This document shows positions 9,873-33,247 of a stretch of DNA of 64,000 nucleotides, piece after piece; positions within the stretch are counted from its first letter, which is position 1, and every line of letters starts with the position of its first letter. Below the pieces are notes generated by a model. The model was not told the origin of the DNA and made no database searches. It was given only the letters and a program-made list of their open reading frames with translations. This DNA comes from an uncultured Actinomycetota bacterium. Lineage in GTDB: Bacteria > Actinomycetota > Actinomycetes > Actinomycetales > Micrococcaceae. Position numbers and translations under genes: made by a program. The stretch covers positions 152,336 to 216,335 of the forward strand of contig CAVZJX010000001.1 of the NCBI GenBank assembly GCA_963775715.1, written 5' to 3'.

Positions 9873-10250
9873 ATTTCCCCATTAGTGAACCTGGGCCAGC
9901 GGCCACAGAAAACTTGTCGTTCCGCACGTGGGCGGCATCGCGCGTTTACTGCGGGCGGGGATTCGAGGAGAGCGCTACGGCTGCATCACGCAGGGCTGGG
10001 CAGGGCACCAAAATGGGAGAGGGAGACATGCCGGAGACCTTTGCTGTTCGGTAGCCCGGCTGACCTCGTGGGCCCCGTGGCTTTGCGTCCCCGGCTCGCA
10101 CCGGGTTTGCCCTTATCGATGAGCGGATGCCCTATCGAGGGTCACGATAGCAAAAAACATCCAAATGTTTGCCGCCCTTGGGAACCCGGGAGCTAGGAGC
10201 GCAGCGAGAGTTTGTTGGTGCTGCGTTACCGCGGGACCTTCTCCAGCAAG

Positions 10251-10302
10251 AGCAAAGGCCCCTGCCTCCCTTGTAAACAAAGGGAAGCAGGGGCCTCGCT
10301 AT
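10251..10302 (-). terminator. Intrinsic terminator-like hairpin, left copy
   Basis: ggcccctgcctccctt..aagggaagcaggggcc stem followed by TTTGCT on the minus strand; one substitution versus the copy at 31939-31990. Confidence 0.75.
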
Positions 10303-10303
10303 C

Positions 10304-10330
10304 TGGCGGTGACGGTGGGATTTGAACCCA
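10304..10330 (-). repeat. att core (duplicated tRNA-Ser 3' end, tRNA-distal junction)
   Basis: tggcggtgacggtgggatttgaaccca, identical to 31993-32019 (27 bp). Confidence 0.93.
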
Positions 10331-12232: not shown

Positions 12233-13342
12233 TCAGTTGCCGTCGCGTCCCGCTGCCAAGAGTTGATCTTTTCGGGCCGTGTGAAGCGCGCCTGCCACTG
12301 TGTCCAGGTCGTCTTCAAACAGGTCGGCGTAGCGGTCCAGCGTCATAGCTGCAGAGGCATGCCCGAGCATCCGCTGCAGCACTTTAATGTTCGCTCCTGC
12401 GCTGATGGCAAGGGATGCTGCCGTGTGCCTCAGATCGTGGGGTGTCAGCGTGGGCAACGCTGGGTCGTTGGCTTGCGCACGCTTCCGGGCCGCCCCGAAC
12501 CAACCGCTGACGGCGTTTCCGGGGCGAAGATAGTTCACACCGTCGCCCCAAAGGAGGGAATGACTCTCCTTGCCGGCGCAGGCGGATTCAACGGCCGACG
12601 CCAGAAACGCTGGGTAGACAACGGAACGGCTCTCATGTGTCTTGGGTGTACCGATCACCATCTTGCCATTGACATTGACGGCGTTCTCTACGATCAGTGC
12701 CCGCCGCGCTGACTGGTCCACGTGGCCGACCCTCAGGCCGGTGGCCTCACCCCATCGGAGCCCGGTGTAAGCCAGGAACCGCACAAAATCGGGGTATTTA
12801 GATTCCAATGCGAGGGCTTCCACCTGGCTGTGCGTCAGGTACGCGCGGGGGCGGCTCGTCTTTCGGGCGATTTTCACGCCCTCTGCCGGGTTTGACGCAA
12901 TACGTTTGTCTTCTGCTGCGTCGTGGAGAATCCCTGAGAGTACGCCGAGGCAACGAGAAACCGTTGTTGGACTTCGAGATTCGGAAAGAGAGGCCACCCA
13001 TGCCTTGATTTCCGTTCGCCTCAAAGAGGAGACGGGGCGGTCCCCCCACATCGGACGTACGTGGTTTCTCCAAGCGCTTTCGTCGCTGTGGAACGTTGAA
13101 GGTTTGACCGTGTGTTTGTGGGCTGCCAGCCACTCGGCTCCGAGGGTTTCGATAGTGATGCGCCCGTCACTCGGTGCGATGAACTGGCCGCTCCGCTTGG
13201 AGACCTCCACGCCGTCCAGGAAGGCCTGAGCATCACGCTTGAGTTTGAACCCGCGCTTCTGGCCCTGGGTGTTATTCGGCTTTTTATAGAGCACGCGGTA
13301 CCACTTGCCGCTCTTATTTTCGTAGGCGTGGATACTCCCCAT
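12233..13342 (-). CDS. int: Tyrosine recombinase / phage-type integrase
   Basis: YTGLRWGE (R), HDLRH (HxxR), LGHASAAMTLDRY (H, Y); N-terminal arm-binding segment WYRVLYKKP...KRGFKLKRDA; start MGSIH at 13342. Confidence 0.95.
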   Translation of the reverse strand: MGSIHAYENKSGKWYRVLYKKPNNTQGQKRGFKLKRDAQAFLDGVEVSKRSGQFIAPSDGRITIETLGAEWLAAHKHTVKPSTFHSDESAWRNHVRPMWGDRPVSSLRRTEIKAWVASLSESRSPTTVSRCLGVLSGILHDAAEDKRIASNPAEGVKIARKTSRPRAYLTHSQVEALALESKYPDFVRFLAYTGLRWGEATGLRVGHVDQSARRALIVENAVNVNGKMVIGTPKTHESRSVVYPAFLASAVESACAGKESHSLLWGDGVNYLRPGNAVSGWFGAARKRAQANDPALPTLTPHDLRHTAASLAISAGANIKVLQRMLGHASAAMTLDRYADLFEDDLDTVAGALHTARKDQLLAAGRDGN

Positions 13343-14100
13343 GCTCTGCCTTCCCTGTAGATGCCGTGGTGCGGATGAAGTGTCAGTACATGTGAGTTTG
13401 TGCGTTCGGTCAAGCGCATGAAAGCCGTTACGAGCACCGGAATCTGTGACTACACGGGGCGTGTAGCGTTTTTCGTACCAGGAAATGGCACACGGGTTAG
13501 GAGCGATTTCTGCTGGCTTACCAGCTAATTCTGCTGTTTTTGGGTGTGTGCCGTGTGTACCGCCGATTACTGGCTTTGTCCCGACATTAAAAAGTTTAAA
13601 AAATGGCGTGCCCAACTGTGCTCGAAAGGCCCGCGGCAGGGGACGCCAGGGCCGAGACCCTTGCCATCACTGGGATGTACGCCCGCCCGCTTGCGTCGCA
13701 GTTTCTCTTGAGTGAGTCCAAAAGGAAGTGTGCCTCACTGTGCACGACCTCCCGGGAACGGACAGGTGATTCTGCGTCGATATCAGCGCCATCGTTGGCC
13801 TGGACGGGCTTATCGAGGCCAAGCGAACAGTTGCGATGAGTTCATAGCCCCGGACTGTGCTGATCTGTGCTCGCCCAAAATATTGGGGTTATGTAGAGAA
13901 ATGTAGAAATTCGTGGGACGACTCACTCATGTGTGTATACTGTGTGACACACGAGATCAATGCTCCGAAAACAGTCACAAGGAGTAGTGGAGAGTAATCT
14001 CCCCGAGTGGATACGCACCACAAGGTGCACGGCCGACATAGAGATCTGAAATGGCTCGTCGGGTGATCCTCTTGCCGCTGAAAAGCCGCAAGGGATACCT

Positions 14101-14397
14101 ATGTCTACAACCGTTTCAATCAGCCGACCCACCCTCAGTTCAATTGCCGAACGCCTCGCCGCCATCGAACGTGACGTCGCCAGTGCTCGCGTTCCGGTGC
14201 TGGATGACCTTCTCACTCCGCCGGCCCTCGCCGGACAACTGGATGTCACCGAGCGCACTCTCAGCGAGTGGCGCATCACGGGCCGTGGTCCCGCCTTCAT
14301 CAGACTGGGCAAAACGGTCCGCTACCGATCTGCGGCCGTCGAAGCCTGGCTGCTTTCCCAGGAGCACCACAGCACCTCCGAGGAGGTGCGTTACTAA
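14101..14397 (+). CDS. xis: Excisionase-like HTH DNA-binding protein
   Basis: LLTPPALAGQLDVTERTLSEWR..GRGPAFIRLGKTVRY, HTH_17/AlpA-type; divergent from int. Confidence 0.85.
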   Translation: MSTTVSISRPTLSSIAERLAAIERDVASARVPVLDDLLTPPALAGQLDVTERTLSEWRITGRGPAFIRLGKTVRYRSAAVEAWLLSQEHHSTSEEVRY

Positions 14398-15260
14398 TGC
14401 CGGCAGCAGAAAACCGTTCTGTCGCGAACGACACTTCGAGAGCGGTCCGTCCGCGCAACTCTGGACGACCTTCTGCCCGGTCCAAGTCCAAGAACAAGAA
14501 GTCTGCACCGCGTCGCTATCGCTCATTCAAGATCACGCAGTACCTGCGCCACCCGGAAACGGGCGAAGCTCTTATGACCCCGACGCAACTCCAGCGGGGC
14601 CTTGCCCACCGTTCGATCACCAAGTGGGCATGGACTGAGCACGACCAGGACCGTCGTAGCGACGGCAGCCTCGTTCCTCCCCACGTCCATATCGCACTGC
14701 AGTGCACGGATGCCCGTAGCCGTGAACAGATAGCCGAGTGGTTCGGTGTACCCCTGGAGTTAGTCCAGATCTTGGCTGGTCGAGGCGGTTTTGCGAGCTA
14801 CCTCCGCTACCTGACCCACGAAGATCCAACTCAGCAGGCTCTGGGTAAACACCGCTACCCCGAAACCGCTGTCGTCGCCAACTTTGATTGGCGCAGGGAA
14901 GTGGAAACCCATTTCGCAAGGCCCCTGAAGCTCCCGACACGCTTGGACGAGATCAAACTCGGAGTGCTGTCCGGGACCCTGTCGCTGTGGGAAGTCCGTG
15001 AGACCGACCCACTTGTGTACGCGAAACACTTCTCTACCCTGAAACGCTTGGCCGAGGAATGCAGGACGGCTCACGTTGAAGCAGGGACCATGACGCCCCA
15101 CCGCCAGGACATGAAACTCAGGGTGCGCACTGGAGTGACTCTGACAGAGAGCTTGAACTGGATCGCGGATCGGCTGGGCTTCGAGGGAGATAACTATGAC
15201 CGCATGCTGCGGGCCAGCAACGTCGTTACGGGCAACGACCGCACCGTAAACGCGGCGTAA
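14397..15260 (+). CDS. rep: Rolling-circle replication initiator (Rep_2-type HUH endonuclease)
   Basis: HDQD..PHVHIAL (HUH), YLRYLTHE (catalytic Tyr), GKHRY; AGGAGG RBS and TAATG coupling to xis. Confidence 0.85.
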   Translation: MPAAENRSVANDTSRAVRPRNSGRPSARSKSKNKKSAPRRYRSFKITQYLRHPETGEALMTPTQLQRGLAHRSITKWAWTEHDQDRRSDGSLVPPHVHIALQCTDARSREQIAEWFGVPLELVQILAGRGGFASYLRYLTHEDPTQQALGKHRYPETAVVANFDWRREVETHFARPLKLPTRLDEIKLGVLSGTLSLWEVRETDPLVYAKHFSTLKRLAEECRTAHVEAGTMTPHRQDMKLRVRTGVTLTESLNWIADRLGFEGDNYDRMLRASNVVTGNDRTVNAA

Positions 15261-15313: not shown

Positions 15314-15619
15314 ATGGCCATTGAAGATGAAGTTGCAGCCGTCAAAGCAGCGGCAGCGAAAAAGCTCCGGCTCCTGCGGGATCGTGAGCGCAAGCAGCAG
15401 CAGGCCGTGGACACGAGGATGCTCATGTTGATGCGCGACAAGCACCCTGGGCCGGCAGCTCAGCTCGAGGGTGAAGCGCGTGCGCAGCTTGCCGCCGAGT
15501 CGGCCCAGCGGTCCACACGGGCAAGGACATCGAGGGCGGTGCCGCCGCCGGCGGGCCAAGGCAACGGCGGGAATGCCGTTACTCCGCACGATGAGCGCAG
15601 CCCGGAGCACACGCCGTGA
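15314..15619 (+). CDS. Small helical hypothetical protein of the backbone
   Basis: GAAAGGAA RBS; co-oriented between rep and the putative oriT. Confidence 0.65.
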   Translation: MAIEDEVAAVKAAAAKKLRLLRDRERKQQQAVDTRMLMLMRDKHPGPAAQLEGEARAQLAAESAQRSTRARTSRAVPPPAGQGNGGNAVTPHDERSPEHTP

Positions 15620-15700
15620 TCGGCGGGCAGCTTGTCGTCGGCGGCCAGTACCTGGGTGCGCAAGCACCCGGGTGCGGTGTCGTGGTTCAGGTTTGGGGGT

Positions 15701-15735
15701 CGAGGGGGAAGGGCGGAGCCCAGCCCCTCGCAAGC
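15701..15735. promoter_or_regulatory. Putative oriT
   Basis: Hairpin cgagggg...cccctcg abutting GCAAGC (GCTTGC on the minus strand) in the intergenic region just upstream of mobC. Confidence 0.45.
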
Positions 15736-15836
15736 GGCGCACTGGACGACGAGCGAAGCGGTGTCGGACAGAGTGCCTGCTTGCGTTCGTTTTCCACCGC
15801 AGATTTCGTGCTTCGGGGCCGGATGGAGGCGGGTCT

Positions 15837-16247
15837 ATGAGCGGCACTTCGCAACAGCTTGCTCCTGAGTCGAGGAGCCGCCGGATCGACACGCGGTTCA
15901 GCGAAGCTGAACTCGCGTTGGTCGAGAAGGTGGCGACGTGGCGGGGGTTGCCGCCGTCGGCCTTCGTTCGAGGCGCGGCTCTAGCCGCGGCGAAGCAGGC
16001 CGAGGGGCGTGGCGCCGGCGGCGCCGGGCCGGCAGAGCCGCCTTTGGCTGCGCTCACCGACCGTCAGCTCGGGGTTCTGGAGGCTGCCCGGGTCGGCGTG
16101 AAGCGCGTCGGGGTGAATCTCAACCAGTTGAGTCGACTGGGGCATCGAGGCGTACTGGACCTCGGTGCCCTCGGCCCGGTGGTCGATGCGTTGGCGGAAC
16201 AGTATGAACATATGGTTTCAGTGCTCCGTGGGAAGGACTGCCCGTGA
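15837..16247 (+). CDS. mobC: MobC-like relaxosome accessory protein (ribbon-helix-helix)
   Basis: RRIDTRFSEAE...SAFVRGAAL and GVNLNQLSR motifs; GTGA overlap with the relaxase. Confidence 0.88.
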   Translation: MSGTSQQLAPESRSRRIDTRFSEAELALVEKVATWRGLPPSAFVRGAALAAAKQAEGRGAGGAGPAEPPLAALTDRQLGVLEAARVGVKRVGVNLNQLSRLGHRGVLDLGALGPVVDALAEQYEHMVSVLRGKDCP

Positions 16248-17545
16248 GTATCACGACGGTATCTCCGGTCTACGATTTGGGCACCCGGGCGGACTATCTG
16301 GAATTCGGCGTCGGGGCGAAGAAGAAGGGCCACAAAGCGGCAGGTACTGACCGGCTGGCTCCGGGGTTCTACTGCGATGCACCGAGCATCGACGGGTTCA
16401 TCAAGATGGGCAACCTGCTGGCCGAGCAGAGCGGCCGCCGGGTGAAGGCCCACTCCTACATCATTTCTTTCCATCCCGACGAGCTGGATGTCAACGATCC
16501 CCGCGACTTAAAGAGGGCTGGAGATCTGGGATTCCTGCTGGCGAAGACGATGCGGCCCAACAGCCCCGCGATGGTCGTGGTTCACGACGACGGCCAGGGC
16601 GGCTGCGCCCACGCCCACATCACGATCCTGAACCACGACACCGTTACCGGTAAGGCGCCCACATCCTTCCGTGTGCACTGGCAGGTGAAGCGCGCCAACG
16701 ACCGCCTGATGCAAGAAGAAGGGATGCAGGTCACCGCACCGGCACCGGCGTCCACGCCGGGTTCCTACTGGGCCAACAAGCGTGGTGACCTGGCGGCCTT
16801 CGACCAGCAGCTCGGCGACGCGATCGAGCAGGCGGGTATCGACCCCTCCGCGGTGGATCTGCCGACTTTCATAGCGGCGTGCAATGCCCGCGGCGTCGAG
16901 GTCCTCACAACGGAACACAAAGTTGTGAGCGACGGGTATCGCAGCAAGACCGCCGGAGAGACAGCCACCGGCATCACCTACAAGATGCGCGACGAATCCA
17001 CGCCCGGAAAGAGCCCCCGGATGCGGAGGCGCAAGGCCTCGGCGCTGTCACCGGAATTCACCGAGGACGGACTCGCCGACATATTCACGATGAAGCAGAA
17101 GGGCAAGGAGCAAAACCATGGGCATCAAGGACAAGTACGAAGAACAGCAGCACCAGCAATACAACGAGCAGCAACTGACTTCGGAGACATTGATCGCATT
17201 GCTCGACCGGCTCGACGGGATCGAGAAGAATCAGCGGGAGATCGTGACCTCATTCAACTCGGTGGCGCAGAGCTTCATCAGCACATGGCAGGGAGTGGAG
17301 CAGGCGCAGCGGTCGATGCAGCAGCTGAACAGCTCCGCCGCTTCCGCGAACGCCTTGCACGGGAAGACGCTGACGACGCTCGCGACGACGCAAAGCGAGA
17401 TTCTGGAACTGCTGGCCAGCTCCAAGGCCGTCGCGCTACCCGACGGGACGACGGTGCGGGCCGCGGACCTCTCCGCCCACGCCTTGATGCGGAAAGTGTC
17501 GGCGCAGATCTCGGCTTTGGAAACGACGAACTCGAGATTGGCTGA
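16244..17545 (+). CDS. Relaxase/mobilization nuclease (MOB_P-type)
   Basis: N-terminal DY tyrosine, AHSYIISF (motif II), VHDD..GCAHAHITILN (3H motif III). Confidence 0.88.
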   Translation: MSITTVSPVYDLGTRADYLEFGVGAKKKGHKAAGTDRLAPGFYCDAPSIDGFIKMGNLLAEQSGRRVKAHSYIISFHPDELDVNDPRDLKRAGDLGFLLAKTMRPNSPAMVVVHDDGQGGCAHAHITILNHDTVTGKAPTSFRVHWQVKRANDRLMQEEGMQVTAPAPASTPGSYWANKRGDLAAFDQQLGDAIEQAGIDPSAVDLPTFIAACNARGVEVLTTEHKVVSDGYRSKTAGETATGITYKMRDESTPGKSPRMRRRKASALSPEFTEDGLADIFTMKQKGKEQNHGHQGQVRRTAAPAIQRAATDFGDIDRIARPARRDREESAGDRDLIQLGGAELHQHMAGSGAGAAVDAAAEQLRRFRERLAREDADDARDDAKRDSGTAGQLQGRRATRRDDGAGRGPLRPRLDAESVGADLGFGNDELEIG

Positions 17546-23959: not shown

Positions 23960-25150
23960 TCAGATCGGATCGTACGGTCTTTGCCTCCCGAACAGTTGCT
24001 CGTAGACGTCGACCATGTTGCCAAGAAGTCGTACATCCCGCGATGACTCCGGAAACTTGTGGGCTATCTGCTGGACTAGGGCCAGGTTATATTCCGCGGC
24101 CAGATGCGCACCTTGGGGTGTGACGACGGAGAAGTCCAACTTATGGGCGACAGCATTACGAAGCCGCCTAGAGCTTGCGGTCCACGCATCGATAAAGGTT
24201 CCGGTGCTAAGTCCGAGGACGGGCGCCAGACTGCTAAGCAACGTTTTCGCCCTCGGGTTCGTGCTGTATACGCTAGTGAGCCTCACAAGCTTGTCGTCAG
24301 GCAGATCGGGATGTCTAAGGTAACAAAGCCTCAAGGCCAGCTCCATGAACCTGTCTGAGTTGAGTACGGCCGATTCGAACTGCCCAAGACACAAATCATC
24401 GATTGCCGTTACGGCTAGGTTCACTAGATAGCGTACCTCAGGGCTGAATACAAGGCCCTCGCAGTAGTCTAAGAACTCCTTGTACTCAGCAGGGAGGAAT
24501 GCACGCTTAGCCCAAACGTCCATTTTGTCGTTGTAGTGGATTGTCACCGCCTCCGGAGCTGAAATTTCCGGCTGTTCTGCAAACGTAATCGGATAGCAGT
24601 CAAATACACCCGGCAGCTGTCTGGCAGAAATAGGCTGGACGCCGTGATCGTGGCGAACGATCCGATAGGACGTGAGTACGTCATTCAGATAGCGCAACGC
24701 GCTATCCAATGAAATGCGTTGGTCGAGCAAGTCCTTTCCGAGAACCCCAAAGATGAGAATCGATCCTCCTGCGCGGCTTTCGCTAGCCCCCAAGGACAAT
24801 TTGACTGGAAAGCTTCCCGAGACAGCGAAAATGACCTCACCTGCGGACTTGGAGTATCGGCTTGCTGTGTAGCCAGGAGGGAGCGCGATGACAGACGTGG
24901 TGGCGGCTACAAACGCATAGCCGTGGCCTGCGGAGAACTCGGGTATGCGGCCCAAGACCCCCCTCAGCGCATTGCCGAGAAGCTCTTCCACATTGATTTC
25001 AGCTCGAAGGGCATACACCGCTTCAGTGAAACTTCCCAAGACTAAGTTTCCGTCATCATGCAAGTACGGCATGTACTCAGATGTGAAGTTCTCGTCTGCC
25101 ATCAAACCAAGAATGGTCTCCATCGGGCTATTCAGCGGACCATCTTTCAA
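23960..25150 (-). CDS. HEPN-domain protein (ApeA-like layout: N-terminal alpha/beta domain plus C-terminal HEPN)
   Basis: GQFESAVLNSDRFMELAL helix with conserved E; RNAVAH (RxxxxH, 24143-24160). Confidence 0.72.
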   Translation of the reverse strand: MKDGPLNSPMETILGLMADENFTSEYMPYLHDDGNLVLGSFTEAVYALRAEINVEELLGNALRGVLGRIPEFSAGHGYAFVAATTSVIALPPGYTASRYSKSAGEVIFAVSGSFPVKLSLGASESRAGGSILIFGVLGKDLLDQRISLDSALRYLNDVLTSYRIVRHDHGVQPISARQLPGVFDCYPITFAEQPEISAPEAVTIHYNDKMDVWAKRAFLPAEYKEFLDYCEGLVFSPEVRYLVNLAVTAIDDLCLGQFESAVLNSDRFMELALRLCYLRHPDLPDDKLVRLTSVYSTNPRAKTLLSSLAPVLGLSTGTFIDAWTASSRRLRNAVAHKLDFSVVTPQGAHLAAEYNLALVQQIAHKFPESSRDVRLLGNMVDVYEQLFGRQRPYDPI

Positions 25151-25347: not shown

Positions 25348-26145
25348 TCAGCGAGGCTGCTGCAAGAGCACGCTCCTAGACTGCCTAACTCGTTCCGTAG
25401 TGTTGATGAATGTTGACAACGGCAAACGGTCTGCCAGGACGGAGGCGAGGATGGACACTGCAGCGTTGGCAAGAGAATTGGTCACACTCGCCTCCTGGGG
25501 TGCGTCAAAACGCCATGCGGCTTTGACCCAAGGCAGGTTTGCTCGTGAACTGCCCTTAGGTATGACTCCGCTTCGGGACTCCGGCCCGTGCAGAACAAGT
25601 TTCGGGACTTGGTAGTCGTAGCTCGTCTCGGTCGACCAGTCCAGAACTGGAAATTGCTGTGGATGATTTAGGAGAGCTCGGAAGAGCCGTGCTTGCTCTA
25701 GGAAGAAGAAGGTGTTGTCCCGTCCGGTTCCCTCGTATGGCAGTCCAACAATTTCCTTCATCCATCGCACAAACTTTGCATTGTCGCTGAAGGCCTTGCC
25801 GCCGAAGATTTTGGAGAATCGTGAGACGACGGAGGAGAGGTGAGACAGCGCGCCATAGTAAGTGTCAAAGTAGTTTTTCGTCCTGTTGTAGATGAGTCGC
25901 CGCTGCTTCTCCGTGGGAGCAGGCCAACCTGTCAGCGGGCTTCTGTCGCACTGGTTCCGGACGTCTTCCAAGCCATACAGCGCGTCTAGGAGATTCTCCA
26001 TCTCTTCTAAGAAACCGCGAAGGGCTTGAGCCTCAAATTCGTTGAAAGACAAGGGTTCGAAGGCCTTCTGCCAATGTTCGACGACAACGGCCGATACGTT
26101 GGACGCCGTCAATTTATCCGGGGAGTGGGTCTTCGCTACGTCCAT
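25348..26145 (-). CDS. All-helical protein with HEPN-like RxxxxH motif (Cthe_2314-like)
   Basis: YFDTYYGALSHL helix; RALLNH (25663-25680); 265 aa. Confidence 0.5.
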   Translation of the reverse strand: MDVAKTHSPDKLTASNVSAVVVEHWQKAFEPLSFNEFEAQALRGFLEEMENLLDALYGLEDVRNQCDRSPLTGWPAPTEKQRRLIYNRTKNYFDTYYGALSHLSSVVSRFSKIFGGKAFSDNAKFVRWMKEIVGLPYEGTGRDNTFFFLEQARLFRALLNHPQQFPVLDWSTETSYDYQVPKLVLHGPESRSGVIPKGSSRANLPWVKAAWRFDAPQEASVTNSLANAAVSILASVLADRLPLSTFINTTERVRQSRSVLLQQPR

Positions 26146-27282: not shown

Positions 27283-27684
27283 GACAGCCGTTTGTTCCTG
27301 AGGGAGCATGCTACTGCGTTCCGGAGCGCGTCCTTAGATCTGGGAACCACCCGGCTGGTGCTTTCTTTGGTTCGACGGGTTCGGGGTCGCGGTATTCTTT
27401 CATGTCCTAGTTGTTGAACAGTCCTGGGGTCGAGGAGGACTCTCATATGGTGGTCTCCGGTCCCGCCACCAGACGCTCATCCCGGTGGCAGGCTCGAGGC
27501 GCAGGTGCCTCAGGAACGTCAGAGGGCAGCTACGCGTGAGACGGCCGGCGCGTTGGCTGCTGCTAAGAGCCCGTCAGGCGTTTCCGATATCCCGGAATGT
27601 ACGGCGTCGGGATGTCCCTGACGGCCGGTATTGTGCTGATCGTAGGAAAGGGGATTACGGTCTCCGAGCCAGTATGGGACCTCA

Positions 27685-28833
27685 TCACCAGTCCATGTTT
27701 GCAGACCGCTCCCATAGGTAATTGTGGTGGTTGATCATGTCCCCTAGTTTGCCCGCAGCGCGTGCCGCACGAAGCTCGTCACGGAATTTCTGGTCGTAGC
27801 GCATGTCGAGCCCTTCGCAAATCCACAGCATAGCGTCCGCTAGGGGCCCAGATTGCAGCCAAGCGTCCATCACGTCGAGGGTCTTAATCGCTTCCTCAAA
27901 GTCAGTTTCCCGTGCTGGTATGAACTGAAAGTGCGGGCTATCGCGGATGTCGGAGAAGGCAGCCGGTATGGCTCCAACCCCGGGCACATGGAAATGGATG
28001 GTTGCGTCTTGCTTGTCGAAGCCACCGTGCGAGTATGTGTTGCGCCAAGTTTCCACTAGCCGTACCAGCTCGTGGCAACGTTGGTTGGCTACACGGTCTT
28101 GCCGACCGAAAACACGCTTGTATTTGTCTCCCCAGCGACTGGAAATGAAGTCCGACAGGCTTTCTGTTTCTGGGTTGAAATCAATGAACGGAAGTGCTAG
28201 CACTAGCGTGTGTTCAAGCAGGCTCAAGTACGCGTTTAGAGCGGCAACGAGGTTGTAGAATCCCTCGGGAGGGTCGGTTGTGAGGCTGATACCACCGAAA
28301 GATAGGTTCTTGGCGTTGCCTTTGTCGCTGGCAAAAGCAAGGCGTGCGCCCTCTCGGAAGTATTCGTACGAGTTCCGTAGTGTCCCGTATTGGTTGACTA
28401 TAGTGACGTTGCCTGCGCTAACCTGCTCTTTGCTGAATGGTGTAAGGATTTTCGACTCAATGATCCGCACCGCGGATTCCAGTTTGTCGATGATTTCGCG
28501 ATGAGCTCTTTCGGCTGCAGGCCCGTCAGCCTCATCGTGAGGATCGTGTTGCACGTAGAGTCGCATTCCAAATTTCTGGAGAGCGACGGCAGCCCAGCGA
28601 CCGCGGTACCGGAAAGAGATGTAAAAGGCTGTCTTCTCCGCCGACCCCAGGTCTTCAAGTCCAATAAGCAGCAAGGCATACCGGATGAGATACGGCACTG
28701 GCCATACGTCTCGGGACACCATAAATCTCAGGGTTTCTCCGTCGTTGGTACCCGGGGAAGAAAAGTCCCTGAGGCAGGTGGTTGATAGTTTTGCGGCCGC
28801 GTCGCTGGCGCCCGGAAGAGGATCAGGAATCAC
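27685..28833 (-). CDS. HEPN-like domain protein
   Basis: AYLSLLEHTLVL (E motif) and WRNTYSHGG (RxxxxH, 28027-28044); 382 aa. Confidence 0.65.
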   Translation of the reverse strand: MIPDPLPGASDAAAKLSTTCLRDFSSPGTNDGETLRFMVSRDVWPVPYLIRYALLLIGLEDLGSAEKTAFYISFRYRGRWAAVALQKFGMRLYVQHDPHDEADGPAAERAHREIIDKLESAVRIIESKILTPFSKEQVSAGNVTIVNQYGTLRNSYEYFREGARLAFASDKGNAKNLSFGGISLTTDPPEGFYNLVAALNAYLSLLEHTLVLALPFIDFNPETESLSDFISSRWGDKYKRVFGRQDRVANQRCHELVRLVETWRNTYSHGGFDKQDATIHFHVPGVGAIPAAFSDIRDSPHFQFIPARETDFEEAIKTLDVMDAWLQSGPLADAMLWICEGLDMRYDQKFRDELRAARAAGKLGDMINHHNYLWERSANMDW

Positions 28834-29119
28834 ACTTGGAGGTTAGCGCAGTTTCGGTGGCGCTACAGCGTGACCTCGTTTGACCGATGTTCGTATTCGA
28901 TCCGCTGTCCGGTCCCACGGTAGGACGCTCGATGTTGGTTGGAATTCCTGGCATCTAGCCATGTGGAGCTTGCCCGTAATATCTTCATCTCCGACCGTTC
29001 GACCGCATGATCGGCCTTGGCCCTCATCAACGACTTGGGCAAAGCCTAATGTGCGTATAGATGCCCTCATACATCAGTATCGATTCGTGAGCGCGACCAA
29101 TGAGAGCACTGGCTATGTG

Positions 29120-29347
29120 ATGCACCCCGGCTTTACATACGTGATTCTGCAACAGCAGGAATCCGAGTTCGTGAAAATAGGCATCACCCATCAGTCCATG
29201 ACAGAAAGAATGGACAGCCTAGACAACACCTCAGTACCAGTTCCACCCACTGCGCTCTGGTACGAATACGTTTCGGACCCCGAAGCTGTGGAGAAGGAAC
29301 GGATCGTCGCCGGTGAAGTACCCGACGAAGATGCGGGGATCGCGTGA
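29120..29347 (+). pseudogene. Truncated GIY-YIG (T5orf172-type) nuclease
   Basis: GFTYVI...FVKIGIT...ERMDSL..TSVP...VEK, then the LH segment expected for the family is missing. Confidence 0.55.
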
Positions 29348-29599
29348 ACGAGTGGAGCGTTGCATTGGTCCATACTCATAACTGATGCTGAAACGCGACA
29401 CAACATCCCGGCACTTCTGGCCTAGGGGGCACTGCCCCCGTCGACGGGGCCGAGGACGAAGCGTGTTCTTCAGGCGTTCCGCGTGCGAGGTAGGGAATCG
29501 ATCTGGCGACCACGTTAGTATCTGGCCGACAATGTCAGCGGTACGTGTTTTGATGACGACATCAATCAGAGTGGCCTCGGTCTAGGGAGGGGAAGGAAC

Positions 29600-29791
29600 A
29601 TGCGAACCACTTTTGTTCGAGTACGTCACGCTTCGGCACCCATGCCGAGCAGTTGCCGGTGGTGCGGTCGCGAGCAAGGCGTTCATGGCTTGTTCTTCAC
29701 CCGGGCGGTCGGCAACCACTACTTCGTTGACCCGACCCCTCAGCAGCGTCTCGCACGCATGCGGGCGCGACGACTCACTTCGCCAGGCTGA
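29600..29791 (+). CDS. Small phage-like Cys/His protein
   Basis: GGGAGG/AGGAA RBS; CRWC..H..GNH..PTPQQRLARMRARR; 63 aa. Confidence 0.6.
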   Translation: MRTTFVRVRHASAPMPSSCRWCGREQGVHGLFFTRAVGNHYFVDPTPQQRLARMRARRLTSPG

Positions 29792-31583
29792 CGAGCACGT
29801 CGAATTTTTCGCGGAGATCACGAGGGACGTCATCCGCGTCCTCCAGACTCAGGGCTAGCGCCACAAGCATGTCGGGTTTGCCGGTCGGTGCGGTTGCTGC
29901 AGCAGTCCGAATCATTTCGAGCACGTCCTTGCTGAACTTCCCCTCTCGGTGTTCCTTGAAGTCAGCTATGGACCACAGACGAGTTTCAGCGTCGACACGT
30001 GGCCAGGACCGATTGGCTGCTGCAGCCCACTGTTCGTCGCTGAAGACGTCCTCAATCTCATTGGGATCTCCGACGTACAAGCACTGACGGTCGGGGTCGA
30101 GTCCCGCGGCGCGAAGCTTATCCGGGCTAAAGACGTGTCTTGAGTTTGCCTTTGAATCCTCGTCGACGAGGAATACGACGTTGCGTCCGTGCGCATGCAG
30201 GAATCCTGCGAAATGTCTGGCGCCCTCGTTATTGCCGCAGGGCCATATCGCGATACCACAGGACTCCAGGTGACGGCCTGTGGCGAGCTTAAACAACACG
30301 GGGAGGGCACGCGCCTCAGACTCGCCCTCGACCCCGACGAACAGTCGCTCGTGAAGGAGGACCGTGTTTCGAAGGCCAACGCTTGCAGCGATAGCGCCGA
30401 GGTGTGAGCCAACTTCAGAGTCGTCCGCAAGACGTTCGATAACGGTGCGGTGTTGTTCATGCTTGACGTGGACTACGTCGCTGATATCGGTACCGTCGAT
30501 GAGGTTCATAGAGTGTGATGCGATGACGACGGTTACCTTGGGATTTTTCGTCTGTTCATGGATGAGTGTCATCAGCTCGCGCTGGTGTCCATAGTCGAGG
30601 TGGGTGTCGGGCTCGTCGTAAAGCAGCACGATGTCTTCGCCTGAGTGCGCTAGGAGAGTGGCGTTGTACTCCCAAATGGCCAGCGCAACGCGTCGTGCGC
30701 GTCCCGCGCCCGAGAGCTGGAGGTTGATGTTTTCGCCAGCCTCATTCGTGACGGTGATGTCCGTCGATTTCAGCCCGTTGGCGCTAGTAAAGCTGACCGA
30801 AGGCTTAATTTGTACGTCTCCGATGTCGCGCACTTTGTCCATGATGTACTGCCGGATTTCGTCCGCGTCCTTAACAAGCCGCGTCTCGAGGTCCTCCTCG
30901 ATCTTGCGGACACTGCCGTGAAGAGCCTCGGAATCAAGGTGAGACCTGTAGGCGGTGGTGAGGGTGTCTTTGATTGCCACCTCAGCGTCAACGGCGCTGG
31001 TCGCGTCGAAGCGGCGTCCGGCAGGAAGAGCTTTCCCCAGCGCGGCATCAGCGCTGACCCATTCAATCGTGTGCGCGGCGGCGGCGGCTGCGGTTTTCAA
31101 GCGCTCGAGGTAGTCCGCTTTTCTGCCCTTCGTTTGATCAAGCCCAAGCGTCTTCAACCGGTCCTCCAGTTGCGGGACTGTAAGGGTTTCGAGCTCTCTA
31201 AGGCGAGCGTCCTCAGGGACGGAATGAAGTACCTCTAAGACTGGCTTTGACCCCATGCGTGCGATCCGGCGGACATGCAGCGGCGACGGGCCAAACTCGC
31301 TCTTCTCTACTTCATTGAGGACGAATGTTCCGGTGACATACGTTTCCTGGACGCGCTCGATCTTGCCGTCCAAGGAGGGAGATACGGTGCCATCAGCACG
31401 GCTTATGTATGTGCGGTCTGACTCGGTGAGCGAGTAGCCCTCTAGGAGGAAGAGGATCGCATGAATAATGGCAGACTTGCCGGCATCGTTATGACCTGCG
31501 AGAACTGTCGGAGACCCTAGGTCGAGCGATGGAAGATCTTGGATCGATCGAAAACCCTTAATAGAAACGCTCTGCAACCGCAC
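29775..31583 (-). CDS. OLD-family ATP-dependent nuclease (ABC ATPase plus TOPRIM) with SAP-like insertion
   Basis: IKGFRSI, GHNDAGKS (Walker A), LLYDEPDTHL (Walker B), ASHS, VGVEGESE and LVDED TOPRIM motifs. Confidence 0.9.
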   Translation of the reverse strand: MRLQSVSIKGFRSIQDLPSLDLGSPTVLAGHNDAGKSAIIHAILFLLEGYSLTESDRTYISRADGTVSPSLDGKIERVQETYVTGTFVLNEVEKSEFGPSPLHVRRIARMGSKPVLEVLHSVPEDARLRELETLTVPQLEDRLKTLGLDQTKGRKADYLERLKTAAAAAAHTIEWVSADAALGKALPAGRRFDATSAVDAEVAIKDTLTTAYRSHLDSEALHGSVRKIEEDLETRLVKDADEIRQYIMDKVRDIGDVQIKPSVSFTSANGLKSTDITVTNEAGENINLQLSGAGRARRVALAIWEYNATLLAHSGEDIVLLYDEPDTHLDYGHQRELMTLIHEQTKNPKVTVVIASHSMNLIDGTDISDVVHVKHEQHRTVIERLADDSEVGSHLGAIAASVGLRNTVLLHERLFVGVEGESEARALPVLFKLATGRHLESCGIAIWPCGNNEGARHFAGFLHAHGRNVVFLVDEDSKANSRHVFSPDKLRAAGLDPDRQCLYVGDPNEIEDVFSDEQWAAAANRSWPRVDAETRLWSIADFKEHREGKFSKDVLEMIRTAAATAPTGKPDMLVALALSLEDADDVPRDLREKFDVLVSLAK

Positions 31584-31901
31584 GGTGTGCTCCCCAATCA
31601 GACGATGATGACACTGAGTCTACGAGAAACTTGCCTGGTGCAGATTCCACTAATTTTCGGCGCCCACCGGTCGTTTTCCGGCTGGTTGCATGAGTGAGAT
31701 CGAGAGGTGGAGGGTGGCAGGTACGGCGTATGGCGCGTCGATGACAGCAAGGCTCGCCAGAGTGCTGTCGGAGGCTGAGTAGAAAGCCATGCTTAACAAT
31801 CCGACAGTGGGTGGCGACTCACGGCGCATGTTGCACACAGGTTGCCTACTTATGGCGAGTCTTCGTGCAGCGATTGTGAGCAGCGCGCGTCGGAATCAAG
31901 T

Positions 31902-31920
31902 TTTGCCAATTCTTTGCCAA
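31902..31920. repeat. Tandem TTTGCCAA repeat, probable integrase arm-type site (right)
   Basis: Exact copy of 10446-10464. Confidence 0.7.
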
Positions 31921-31938
31921 TGAGGCGGGCTAGGGCAA

Positions 31939-31990
31939 AGCAAAGGCCCCTGCTTCCCTTGTAAACAAAGGGAAGCAGGGGCCTCGCTAT
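31939..31990 (-). terminator. Intrinsic terminator-like hairpin downstream of tRNA-Ser(CGA)
   Basis: Perfect 16 bp stem ggcccctgcttccctt/aagggaagcaggggcc, then TTTGCT on the minus strand. Confidence 0.8.
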
Positions 31991-31992
31991 CG

Positions 31993-32082
31993 TGGCGGTG
32001 ACGGTGGGATTTGAACCCACGTTGGCTTTTACACCAAACAACATTTCGAGTGTTGCACCTTCGGCCGCTCGGACACGTCACC
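31993..32082 (-). tRNA. tRNA-Ser(CGA)
   Basis: GGTGACGTGTCCGAGCGGCCGAAG...CT-CGA-AA anticodon loop, long variable arm, GTTCAAATCC T-loop, encoded CCA. Confidence 0.97.
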
Positions 32083-32218
32083 AACCTGAATAGGGTACCG
32101 GAGCAAGGCGCCCAACCCCAAAACGGCGCCCAAGCGGCCGCCAAAAGACGCCTCGCCGCGCCCCGCGCAGCGCCGAAGCTTTTCCCCGCCCGGCTCCGGC
32201 ATTAGATTCGTAAGCAAG

Positions 32219-33247
32219 ATGAGTAACCCGAACAAGACAGCCCCCGCCCCGACCACCGCAACCGGCTATTGGACCGTCGGCCCCGAGCAGGGCGAACTCC
32301 GCCGCGAGGAACTCCCGGCGCCCGGCCCCGACGAAGCTTTGGTGCGTGCCCTGTACTCCGGCATCAGCAAGGGCACCGAGATGGTGGTGCACAACGCCCG
32401 CGTGCCGGAGTGCATTGCCGCGGAGATGGCCGCGCCCCATCAGGAGGGCAGCTTCCCGTCACCGGTGAAGTTCGGTTACCTCTCCGTCGGCGTCGTCGAG
32501 CAGGGCCCGGCGGACTGGCAGGGCAAGACGGTCTTCTGCCTCTACCCGCACCAGGACCGCTTCATCGTCCCGGTCGCGTCGCTCACCCAAGTCCCCGACG
32601 GCGTTCCCGCCCGCCGGGCCGTGCTTACCGGGACCGTGGAAACCGCCGTCAACGCTCTCTGGGAGGCCGGCCCCCGTCTCGGCGACCGAGTGGCCGTAAT
32701 CGGCGCCGGACTGGTCGGCGGCATGGTCGCCAAGCTCCTCGGAGCCTTCCCGCTGGGCCGGCTGCAGCTCATCGACATCGACCCCGCCAAGCGCGCCTTC
32801 GCCGAGGCCCTGGGCGTCGACTTCTGCCACCCCGACGACGCGCTGGGGGACTGCGACATCGTGATCCACTGCTCCGCCTCCCAGGCCGGCCTCCAGCGCG
32901 CCCTTCAGCTGGTGGGCGACGAGGGCGAGATCATCGAGATGTCCTGGTACGCGGACCGGCAGATCACCCTGCCGCTGGGCGAAGATTTCCACGCCCGCAG
33001 GCTCTCCATCCGCGCCAGCCAGGTGGGCGTCGTCGCCCGCGCCCGCCGCCACCGCCGCAGCAACGCCGACCGGCTCGACCTGGCCGTCTCGCTGCTTGCT
33101 GACCCGGTCTTCGACACCTTCCTCACCGGCACGTCCGGCTTCAGCGAGCTGCCCAATGTTGTGCAGCGCCTCTCCGACGGCAGCCTCGACGCGCTCTGCC
33201 ACGTCATCGAATACCCCGAAGTCCCCGCAACCGAAAGCACGAGGTAA
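32219..33247 (+). CDS. Zinc-binding (MDR) alcohol dehydrogenase-like protein
   Basis: YSGISKGTE; Rossmann VAVIGAGLVG. Confidence 0.85.
   Translation: MSNPNKTAPAPTTATGYWTVGPEQGELRREELPAPGPDEALVRALYSGISKGTEMVVHNARVPECIAAEMAAPHQEGSFPSPVKFGYLSVGVVEQGPADWQGKTVFCLYPHQDRFIVPVASLTQVPDGVPARRAVLTGTVETAVNALWEAGPRLGDRVAVIGAGLVGGMVAKLLGAFPLGRLQLIDIDPAKRAFAEALGVDFCHPDDALGDCDIVIHCSASQAGLQRALQLVGDEGEIIEMSWYADRQITLPLGEDFHARRLSIRASQVGVVARARRHRRSNADRLDLAVSLLADPVFDTFLTGTSGFSELPNVVQRLSDGSLDALCHVIEYPEVPATESTR

What the first reader, a model, noticed from the sequence alone, without database searches (positions are those of the whole stretch)
29775..31583. Stand-alone OLD nuclease with an apparent SAP DNA-binding domain inserted in the ATPase
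Seen: between Walker A and Walker B, 31095-31184 encodes LTVPQLEDRLKTLGLDQTKGRKADYLERL, which fits the SAP/HeH consensus (L.v.eL...L...gL...G.K..l..RL) with one extra residue. There is no UvrD (Gabija), RT (retron) or AriB-type partner nearby. Established: SAP domains bind DNA and are mostly eukaryotic, and single-gene OLD proteins such as P2 Old restrict phage. Inference: a possibly new OLD subclass whose SAP insert provides DNA or end sensing.
Basis: partly seen in the sequence, partly recalled or inferred. Interest (0 to 1): 0.7.

Follow-up and report, generated by a model that had tools for sequence, protein, structure and literature searches.

The report
SAP-bearing OLD nuclease with hidden partner
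The OLD-type ATPase-nuclease carries a real SAP DNA-binding domain shared by its whole subfamily, but it is not a lone gene: a small, mostly unannotated zinc-finger-like gene overlaps its 3' end tail-to-tail, and that gene has relatives in actinobacterial phages.

Summary
Window 29775-31583 (-) encodes a 602-aa OLD-family protein: an ABC ATPase followed by a Toprim nuclease. A SAP/HeH domain (about residues 126-170) sits between Walker A and Walker B.

- **SAP evidence.** The window copy is weak on Pfam SAP (E 0.007, below cut-off). Orthologous segments reach E 5e-12. A family profile of the insert hits solved SAP domains first (Ku70 2e-10, Tho1, FAN1, SIZ1). AlphaFold2 gives helix-loop-helix at pLDDT about 90.
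- **Insert position.** It lies between two β-strands of the ATPase, not in the helical dimerisation insert. It is kept in 103 of 104 family members. P2 Old lacks it, and the insert profile matched no OLD, GajA, AriA or PtuA chain in the PDB.
- **"Stand-alone" is wrong.** A 63-aa ORF (29600-29791, +; CxxC-H-H motif plus a basic helix, good RBS) overlaps the OLD 3' end by 17 nt.
- **The partner is conserved.** The same gene sits tail-to-tail in 58 loci, all in one well-supported OLD clade. It is under purifying selection and co-varies with OLD.
- **Phage link.** Its relatives (phrog_20506, no Pfam family) occur in 49 viral contigs, none with an OLD nearby.

The module is cargo of a 21.7-kb integrative element at tRNA-Ser. 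I read it as a new context-defined OLD variant. Function is untested.

The parts
29775..31583 (-). SAP-OLD gene, 602 aa: ABC ATPase, SAP insert, helical insert, Toprim nuclease and a C-terminal helical region
   Evidence: ORF and translation. Pfam AAA_15, AAA_21, SMC_N and OLD-like_TOPRIM. Best PADLOC match is Old, 1.9e-25. Best Foldseek match is T. scotoductus OLD 6p74, then GajA. AlphaFold2 mean pLDDT 83.6.
31473..31496 (-). Walker A / P-loop, GHNDAGKS (residues 30-37)
   Evidence: G30, N32 and G35 are invariant and K36 is kept in at least 90% of 100 representatives. Coordinates.
31074..31208 (-). SAP/HeH domain insert (residues about 126-170; the Pfam match covers 131-164, window 31092-31193)
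   Evidence: It sits between predicted strands 115-123 and 171-177. P2 Old has no matching segment.
30834..30986 (-). Two long helices (residues 200-250), probably the equivalent of the OLD dimerisation insert
   Evidence: Predicted helices 200-216 and 225-250. The equivalence is by analogy with the T. scotoductus OLD dimerisation domain described in PMC7049728. It is an inference and was not superposed.
30606..30629 (-). Walker B, VLLYDEPD (residues 319-326), with D323 and E324
   Evidence: D323, E324 and P325 are invariant. The signature-like LSGAGRARR is at 290-298 and the H-loop histidine is H357.
30024..30344 (-). Toprim nuclease core (residues about 414-520): E419-G420, D474-x-D476, E511
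   Evidence: Pfam OLD-like_TOPRIM covers 418-476. G420, D474 and E511 are invariant; E419 and D476 are kept in at least 90%.
29600..29791 (+). Small partner gene, 63 aa: C19-x2-C22-x6-H29-x10-H40, then the basic helix QRLARMRARR. It is convergent with OLD and overlaps its 3' end by 17 nt (29775-29791).
   Evidence: Translation. Found at the same position in 58 loci. Median dN/dS 0.28. phrog_20506 E down to 3e-17, with no Pfam or PADLOC match. AlphaFold2 pLDDT 88.
29585..29597 (+). Shine-Dalgarno-like GGGAGGGGAAGGA just upstream of the small gene's ATG
   Evidence: Read directly from the sequence.
31939..32019 (.). Right-hand attachment repeat of the integrative element. It covers the 3' end of tRNA-Ser(CGA) (31993-32082, -) plus a hairpin.
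   Evidence: Direct repeats 10251-10303/31939-31991 (98%) and 10304-10330/31993-32019 (100%). tRNA.
10251..10330 (.). Left-hand attachment repeat. The element between the repeats is about 21.7 kb and has lower G+C.
   Evidence: G+C is 0.55-0.63 inside against 0.68-0.73 outside. Integrase at 12233-13615, Rep at 14268-15260, relaxase at 16244-17545.

Best explanation
This is a two-gene module carried as cargo on an integrative mobilisable element.

**Gene 1** is an OLD-family enzyme. It has an ABC ATPase with a helical (dimerisation-type) insert and a C-terminal Toprim nuclease with the full metal-binding set. In addition, a SAP/HeH domain projects from between two β-strands of the first ATPase lobe.

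**Gene 2** is a 63-aa protein with a Cys2-His2-type motif and a basic C-terminal helix. It is encoded on the opposite strand, and its 3' end overlaps the OLD 3' end.

**Shown:**
- the domain make-up and the intact motifs;
- the identity of the SAP domain and its conservation across the family;
- the conserved tail-to-tail pairing, confined to one clade of the OLD tree;
- purifying selection on the small gene and its co-variation with OLD;
- phage-borne homologues of the small gene;
- the mobile, patchy distribution.

**Inferred:**
1. The module acts in defence against phages or plasmids, as other OLD systems do. ATP binding and hydrolysis would control a nuclease that nicks or degrades DNA.
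2. The SAP domain gives the ATPase head an extra DNA contact that helps the enzyme find or hold its DNA substrate, as SAP does in Ku70 and FAN1.
3. The small protein is a negative regulator of OLD. I favour a direct, antitoxin-like inhibitor (about 0.35). Next comes a controller of expression, helped by the unavoidable antisense overlap of the two transcripts (about 0.25). Last is an adaptor or sensor (about 0.2).
4. The phage homologues would then either neutralise OLD or be what it senses.
For: **OLD identity**
- Pfam and PADLOC matches.
- Foldseek ranks T. scotoductus OLD and then GajA first.
- Walker A/B, the H-loop and the Toprim E, DxD and E residues are invariant or nearly so in 100 representatives down to 24% identity.

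**SAP domain**
- Pfam SAP up to E 1.7e-11 and 4.7e-12 in orthologous segments.
- The family profile hits Ku70, Tho1, MKL1, Rho, FAN1 and SIZ1 SAP domains in the PDB, and no OLD, GajA, AriA or PtuA chain.
- Predicted helix-loop-helix at pLDDT about 90.
- The insert is kept in 103 of 104 OLDs of the family. P2 Old lacks it.

**Partner gene**
- A model of the small protein finds it directly downstream on the opposite strand in 28 non-redundant genome loci (window included), in 30 of 71 metagenome loci with room, and in an independently drawn genome.
- On the OLD tree it maps to one clade (SH-aLRT 99): 58 with it, 2 without, 3 with no downstream sequence. None of the 41 rows outside the clade have it.
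- The 3' ends overlap in 53 of 58 loci (median 17 nt). The other 5 have gaps of at most 14 nt.
- Median dN/dS is 0.28. A GGAGG-type ribosome-binding site precedes the ATG. AlphaFold2 pLDDT is 88.
- Pairwise identities of OLD and of the small protein correlate (r 0.71; 0 of 2000 permutations as high).
- NCBI locus tags C5C39_09720 and C5C39_09725 in Rathayibacter are adjacent.

**Phage link**
- phrog_20506 and Streptomyces phage ZL12.
- 49 IMG/VR contigs carry a homologue, none with an OLD within 3 kb.
- Prophage-like gene arrays in L040 and L041.

**Mobility and rarity**
- Attachment repeats, integrase, Rep and relaxase, and a drop in G+C.
- Neighbouring genes vary between loci.
- Only 1 of 400 other genomes of the phylum has the gene.
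Against: - There is no experimental or expression evidence for either gene.
- The window's own SAP segment falls below Pfam's cut-off.
- DNA binding by the SAP domain is assumed from other SAP proteins.
- I had no model coordinates, so I could not see where the SAP domain points relative to the ATP-engaged dimer or the nuclease site.
- Functional partners are usually co-directional. A convergent pair could be kept together for other reasons.
- Two clade members (L024, L118) lack the small gene, and the deeper SAP-OLD clades never had it. So OLD can exist without it.
- The small protein's fold matches nothing in the PDB or BFVD. Its resemblance to C2H2 fingers is weak and is driven by repeated domains. 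Zinc binding is therefore a guess.
- An archaeal OLD (Cran1) works in the cell cycle, not in defence (PMC12796447).
Confidence: 0.55

Rival explanations
1. This is an ordinary single-gene (Class 1-type) OLD nuclease. The small convergent ORF is an independent passenger, for example a phage-derived DNA-binding protein with its own role, that stays next to OLD only because the pair moves together.
For: The small protein family is common without OLD: 49 viral contigs, none with an OLD, and the prophage-like arrays L040 and L041. Deeper SAP-OLD clades and two clade members lack it. Convergent orientation is unusual for partners in one pathway.
Against: The position is fixed to within a few bases in 58 loci, across OLDs as low as about 37% identical to the window's, while every other neighbour varies. 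The gene maps to one OLD clade with a single inferred gain. OLD and the small protein co-vary. Linkage alone would not keep a 3'-end overlap over that depth.
Confidence: 0.15
2. The SAP-like insert is not a DNA-binding module. It would be a structural or protein-contact element, such as a docking site for another protein or a brace for the ATPase lobe.
For: Some SAP-like folds are not known as DNA binders; the MANF and CDNF C-terminal domains appear among the hits. Many distant family members score better on Rho_N or HeH models, or on none.
Against: The best matches are DNA- or RNA-binding SAP domains: Ku70, Tho1, FAN1, SIZ1. The lysine at the start of helix 2 (K155) and the hydrophobic L139 and L162 are kept in at least 90% of close homologues. 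The host enzyme acts on DNA.
Confidence: 0.2
3. The module has nothing to do with defence. It could serve the mobile element itself (maintenance, addiction or processing of element DNA) or a housekeeping role in DNA repair or the cell cycle, like the archaeal OLD Cran1.
For: It sits on an integrative mobilisable element. A nuclease paired with a small regulator resembles an addiction module. Cran1 shows that OLD proteins can have non-defence roles.
Against: It is present in only 1 of 400 other genomes of the phylum. Its surroundings vary and are often not on an element. In the window it lies among other nuclease-like cargo genes. Its best defence-library match is Old. A housekeeping gene would be widespread and inherited vertically.
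Confidence: 0.1

Closest known systems
Class 1 OLD nucleases (phage P2 Old, Thermus scotoductus OLD PDB 6P74, Vibrio cholerae Vc OLD, E. coli YbjD/OldB)
   Same: [quoted passage not shown] T. scotoductus OLD is the best structural match, and PADLOC Old is the best defence-library match. There is no helicase, retron or AriB partner.
   Different: - P2 Old aligns only over the first 56 residues and the Walker B-to-Toprim stretch, and has no SAP domain.
- The insert profile matches no solved OLD chain.
- Class 1 is defined by having no conserved neighbour. Here a conserved convergent small gene is present.
- The region after the Toprim core has about six predicted helices, against the three described for T. 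scotoductus OLD.
Class 2 OLD / Gabija GajA-GajB
   Same: ATPase-Toprim architecture. GajA models and structures are the next-best matches. It works as a multi-gene system in which a partner modulates the nuclease.
   Different: No UvrD/PcrA-like GajB gene lies downstream in any locus examined. The partner here is a 63-aa convergent gene, not a co-directional helicase.
Eukaryotic and bacterial SAP/HeH domains (Ku70 C-terminus, Tho1, PIAS/SIZ1, FAN1 nuclease, Rho N-terminal domain)
   Same: A helix, extended loop and helix of about 35 residues with the L..L...G.K..L..RL pattern. Profile matches reach E 2e-10. FAN1 is a precedent for a nuclease that uses a SAP domain to hold DNA.
   Different: Here the domain is inserted inside an ABC ATPase fold, between two β-strands, rather than at a terminus. 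Loop length varies by one to four residues across the family.
PHROG phrog_20506 (phage proteins of unknown function; for example the ZL12 protein YP_003257449 (gp085))
   Same: The same CRWCG...H...G.H.W..PT..QR..RM..RR core as the small partner.
   Different: The phage copies sit in arrays of early or replication-type genes, sometimes as tandem paralogues, and never next to an OLD. No function is known.

Membership tests
OLD family (ATPase-Toprim nucleases) | N-terminal ABC-type ATPase with Walker A, Walker B plus catalytic Glu, and an H-loop | tested here: met
   GHNDAGKS at 30-37, LLYDEPD with D323 and E324, and H357 are invariant or nearly so. Pfam AAA_15, AAA_21 and SMC_N.
OLD family (ATPase-Toprim nucleases) | C-terminal Toprim domain with a conserved Glu and a DxD acidic motif | tested here: met
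   PF20469 OLD-like_TOPRIM covers 418-476 at E 2.2e-8, above its cut-off. E419, G420, D474, D476 and E511 are conserved.
OLD family (ATPase-Toprim nucleases) | Overall fold like solved OLD proteins, with a helical insert in the ATPase | tested here: met
   Foldseek ranks 6p74 first (9e-15), then GajA. Helices 200-250 lie between ATPase strands. The TM-scores are low (0.35-0.40) because the domains are oriented differently.
OLD family (ATPase-Toprim nucleases) | ATP-dependent nuclease activity | not testable with these tools
   This needs purified protein.
Class 1 OLD | Single gene with no conserved neighbouring gene | tested here: not met
   A conserved convergent 63-aa gene is present in 58 of the 60 loci of this clade that have downstream sequence. 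The deeper SAP-OLD clades without it would meet this feature.
Class 2 OLD (Gabija) | [quoted passage not shown] | tested here: not met
   No such gene in the window or among conserved neighbours in 31 loci.
Class 3 OLD (retron-associated) | Adjacent reverse transcriptase and retron non-coding RNA | tested here: not met
   No reverse-transcriptase domain in the neighbours. The Rfam scan of 27500-32300 finds only the tRNA.
Class 4 OLD (PARIS AriA/AriB) | ATPase and Toprim on separate polypeptides | tested here: not met
   Both domains are in one 602-aa ORF.
SAP domain (Pfam PF02037; SAP/HeH/LEM-type fold) | A helix-extended loop-helix of about 35 residues matching the SAP profile | tested here: met
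   The window copy is E 1.2e-4 and 22.1 bits on the segment, just under the 23.9-bit cut-off. Orthologues reach 4.7e-12. The family profile hits solved SAP domains. Predicted secondary structure agrees.
SAP domain (Pfam PF02037; SAP/HeH/LEM-type fold) | Binds DNA or RNA | not testable with these tools
   Inferred from Ku70, Tho1 and FAN1.
Zinc-finger protein (small partner) | Four metal ligands in a conserved spacing | tested here: inconclusive
   C19, C22 and H40 are invariant and H29 is kept in at least 90%. There is no Pfam family and no fold match. Matches to C2H2 fingers are weak and not significant for any single domain. Metal content was not measured.

The most novel reading that the evidence does not exclude
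SAP-OLD plus its overlapping convergent small gene would be a new, context-defined class of OLD defence system. The small Cys2-His2 protein would be an antitoxin-like inhibitor or gatekeeper of the nuclease. The widespread actinophage homologues (phrog_20506) would be the matching counter-defence, as inhibitor mimics, or the trigger. The SAP domain would be the DNA sensor that licenses cutting.
Probability: 0.25. Interest if true: 0.8.

Novelty: new variant of a known kind. Interest (0 to 1): 0.62.

Why it matters
OLD nucleases are sorted into classes by their gene neighbourhood. How the single-gene ones recognise targets and avoid self-damage is an open question that the 2023 review raises (PMC10568477).

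This subfamily offers two concrete handles.
- **A built-in DNA-binding domain.** It sits on the ATPase head and can be deleted or mutated.
- **A conserved small partner.** Gene callers usually miss it, and it has phage homologues. That immediately suggests regulator, inhibitor and counter-defence experiments in actinobacteria, including Mycobacterium, Streptomyces and Arthrobacter hosts, whose phages are well collected.

It is also a reminder that "stand-alone" defence genes may have unannotated small partners on the other strand.

Tried and rejected
- **Literature.** Searches for SAP together with OLD found nothing relevant. The main OLD papers never mention SAP. The 2020 ABC-ATPase classification paper could not be opened, so I cannot exclude that it notes the insert.
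- **NCBIfam.** It gave only generic ABC matches far below their cut-offs.
- **Folding the SAP segment alone.** Not done. The second structure job went to the small protein, because sequence evidence for the SAP domain was already strong.
- **Fold searches for the small protein.** PDB and BFVD gave no significant match. The profile search gave only weak C2H2-finger hits.
- **A third conserved gene.** Looked for and not found.
- **A replacement partner in SAP-OLD clades that lack the small gene.** None found.
- **Conserved neighbours of the phage copies.** None are consistent. A RecA/Sak4-like ATPase follows in 4 loci.
- **Operator-like inverted repeats upstream of either gene.** None found. The promoter scan was no better than chance.
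- **Tree of small proteins.** At 58 columns it is too poorly resolved to say whether the OLD-linked copies arose once from phage copies.
- **Model coordinates.** They were not available in the script box, so the spatial position of the SAP domain was not measured.
Full report
**1. The observation**

The minus-strand ORF at 29775-31583 is real: a GTG start, 602 aa, and a GGGAG ribosome-binding site 6 nt upstream. Pfam finds ABC-type ATPase families (AAA_15, AAA_21, SMC_N) and OLD-like_TOPRIM at residues 418-476. The best defence-library model is PADLOC "Old" (1.9e-25), followed by many GajA models.

It lies between Walker A (30-37) and Walker B (319-326). On the whole protein, Pfam SAP matches residues 131-164 only weakly (E 0.0074, 16.3 bits, cut-off 23.9).

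**2. Is the insert really a SAP domain?**

Four independent lines say yes.

- **Homologues.** The protein has hundreds of homologues (395 at E<1e-5 in the word-indexed search; 186 clusters at 50% identity with E<=1e-30). Many carry precomputed PF02037 hits, and a few are already named "SAP domain-containing protein" by NCBI. Rescanning gives SAP in 29 of 61 close homologues (best 1.7e-11).
- **Distant representatives.** On the excised segment from 100 representatives (down to 24% identity), SAP matches in 18 (best 4.7e-12). Related helix-extension-helix models match others: Rho_N 7, SAP_new25 3, HeH 2, FANC_SAP 1, Fan1_SAP 1.
- **Solved structures.** A profile of that segment, searched against every PDB sequence, ranks solved SAP domains first: Ku70 1jjr 2.2e-10, Tho1 3e-6, MKL1, Rho, E1B-AP5, FAN1, SIZ1. 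The same search matches no OLD, GajA, AriA, PtuA or retron ATPase chain, although those are in the PDB.
- **Predicted structure.** AlphaFold2 with a 61-sequence alignment (mean pLDDT 83.6) predicts helix 136-145, a loop, then helix 155-168 at pLDDT about 90-93.

The alignments show the L..L...G.K..L..(R)L pattern throughout, with a loop that varies by one to four residues. The window's single extra residue is shared with its nearest relatives.

**3. Where the insert sits**

In the model the SAP element lies between strands 115-123 and 171-177 of the first ATPase lobe. The two long helices at 200-250 come after it. They are the likely counterpart of the dimerisation domain described for T. scotoductus OLD. 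So the SAP domain is a separate insertion and not part of the coiled-coil-like insert.

P2 Old (fetched) has no SAP match at E<=1. It aligns to the window protein only over the first 56 residues and from the signature motif to the Toprim DxD.

A family-specific model of the insert finds it in 103 of 104 family OLDs collected from genomes and metagenomes. The insert is therefore an old, defining feature of this subfamily.

**4. The catalytic apparatus is intact**

Across 100 representatives these positions are invariant: G30, N32, G35, G294, D323, E324, P325, H357, G420, D474 and E511. K36, E419 and D476 are kept in at least 90%. The best structural match is the Class 1 OLD of T. scotoductus (6p74, 9e-15), then GajA, PtuA, RecN, SMC and Rad50 heads.

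**5. The gene is not alone**

Comparing the surroundings of homologues showed no conserved helicase, reverse transcriptase or AriB-like gene. Rfam finds only the tRNA.

One thing recurred: a short ORF on the opposite strand, right at the OLD stop codon. In the window it is 29600-29791 (+), 63 aa:

MRTTFVRVRHASAPMPSSCRWCGREQGVHGLFFTRAVGNHYFVDPTPQQRLARMRARRLTSPG

It is preceded by GGGAGGGGAAGGA and overlaps the OLD 3' end by 17 nt.

Evidence that this is a real and linked gene:

- **Occurrence.** A model of it finds the gene at that position in 28 non-redundant genome loci (window included), in 30 of 71 metagenome loci with downstream sequence, in two further loci reached from the small protein itself (L039, L042), and in the one other genome of 400 sampled from the phylum that has a SAP-OLD.
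- **Phylogeny.** On a maximum-likelihood tree of 104 OLDs the small gene maps to one clade (SH-aLRT 99). That clade has 58 rows with it, 3 with no downstream sequence and 2 without (L024, L118). All 41 rows outside the clade lack it.
- **Geometry.** The two 3' ends overlap in 53 of 58 loci (median 17 nt) and are at most 14 nt apart in the rest. There is no room for a terminator between them.
- **Selection and structure.** The ORF is under purifying selection (median dN/dS 0.28 over 129 pairs). C19, C22, H40, P45, Q49, R53 and R57 are invariant. It folds confidently: pLDDT 88, a knuckle-like N-terminal part, a β-hairpin and a basic helix.
- **Co-variation.** Pairwise identities of OLD and of the small protein are correlated (r 0.71; 0 of 2000 permutations as high).

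Gene callers usually miss it. Of the places listed, only one (L002) shows a call there. Where NCBI did annotate it, the locus tags are adjacent to OLD's (C5C39_09720 and C5C39_09725).

**6. What the small protein is**

It has no Pfam, NCBIfam-type or PADLOC family. All 411 database clusters are "hypothetical". It matches phrog_20506, of unknown function, at E down to 3e-17.

Homologues occur in Streptomyces phage ZL12 and in prophage-like arrays of small genes (L040, L041). They also occur in 49 IMG/VR viral contigs, sometimes as tandem paralogues, and none of those has an OLD within 3 kb.

No fold relative was found in the PDB or BFVD. The resemblance to C2H2 fingers is weak. A tree of OLD-linked and phage copies is too short to resolve their history.

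**7. Setting**

The module is the last cargo gene of a roughly 21.7-kb element. The element is bounded by an 81-nt direct repeat that includes the 3' end of tRNA-Ser(CGA) (10251-10330 and 31939-32019). Its G+C is 0.55-0.63, against about 0.70 outside. It carries a tyrosine integrase, a Rep protein, a NikA-like protein and a relaxase.

Elsewhere the module sits in unrelated neighbourhoods, and it is rare: 1 of 400 other genomes of the phylum. This patchy, mobile pattern is typical of defence genes. No function has been shown.

**8. How it probably works**

- **Shown:** the architecture, the intact motifs, the SAP identity, the conserved overlapping partner, and the phage homologues.
- **Inferred:** OLD acts as an ATP-controlled dimeric nuclease on DNA. 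The SAP domain adds a DNA contact on the ATPase head, as in Ku70 or the nuclease FAN1. The small protein keeps OLD in check, either by binding it or by controlling its expression. The forced overlap of the convergent transcripts could add antisense control. The phage homologues could mimic the inhibitor or be the trigger.

Because SAP is present in clades that never had the partner, the two features are separable.

**9. Relation to what is known**

The published scheme has Classes 1-4, defined largely by gene neighbourhood, plus an archaeal Class 5 and ten uncharacterised clades (PMC10568477, PMC12796447). None of the papers searched mentions a SAP domain or this partner. I could not open the 2020 ABC-ATPase classification paper.

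The protein is a member of the OLD family. It fails the Class 1 criterion of having no conserved neighbour, and it fails the criteria of Classes 2-4. I therefore rate it a new variant of a known kind. The domain call is partly anticipated by database annotation. The partner gene, as far as I could see, is undescribed.

Noticed in passing
window 10251-32019: A roughly 21.7-kb integrative mobilisable element at tRNA-Ser(CGA). It has 81-nt attachment repeats, a tyrosine integrase (12233-13615, -), a Rep_OBD protein (14268-15260), a NikA-like protein (15471-16247) and a MobA/VirD2-type relaxase (16244-17545). Its G+C is lower than the flanks.
   Followed up: partly
window 28880-29347 (+): An ORF whose C-terminal half matches only the first 61 positions of T5orf172 (E 3.8e-4) and of PADLOC PDC-S57 (5.6e-10), then stops. 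It is probably a truncated remnant of a GIY-YIG-like candidate defence gene, just upstream of the small partner gene on the same strand.
   Followed up: partly
window 23960-25150 (-), 25348-26145 (-), 27685-28833 (-): Three cargo ORFs of 396, 265 and 382 aa have no Pfam, NCBIfam or PADLOC match. Each contains an R-x4-H motif by eye (RNAVAH, RALLNH, RNTYSH), which could indicate HEPN-type RNases.
   Followed up: no
L006 / L014 (WNZI01000034.1, labelled Vibrio cholerae strain 35D): This contig carries the SAP-OLD module together with two Lsr2-type genes, which are typical of actinobacteria. The contig is probably contamination or mislabelled rather than a Vibrio sequence.
   Followed up: no
L034 6085-7783: In a Pseudonocardiaceae metagenome-assembled genome the SAP-OLD gene is split into two overlapping frames. 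It is probably a frameshifted pseudogene, and no small partner is detectable.
   Followed up: no
L138, L139, L145, L152 (IMG/VR contigs): Some viral contigs carry two paralogues of the small CRWCG protein, a few hundred bases apart or less. In four other contigs a RecA/Sak4-like ATPase gene follows it.
   Followed up: partly
L008 (MT835746.1, unverified 'Bacteriophage sp.' from human faeces) 8001-10044: A 19-kb record filed as a phage carries the whole module, with an OLD 66% identical to the window's plus the convergent small gene. Whether the record really is a phage is unknown.
   Followed up: no
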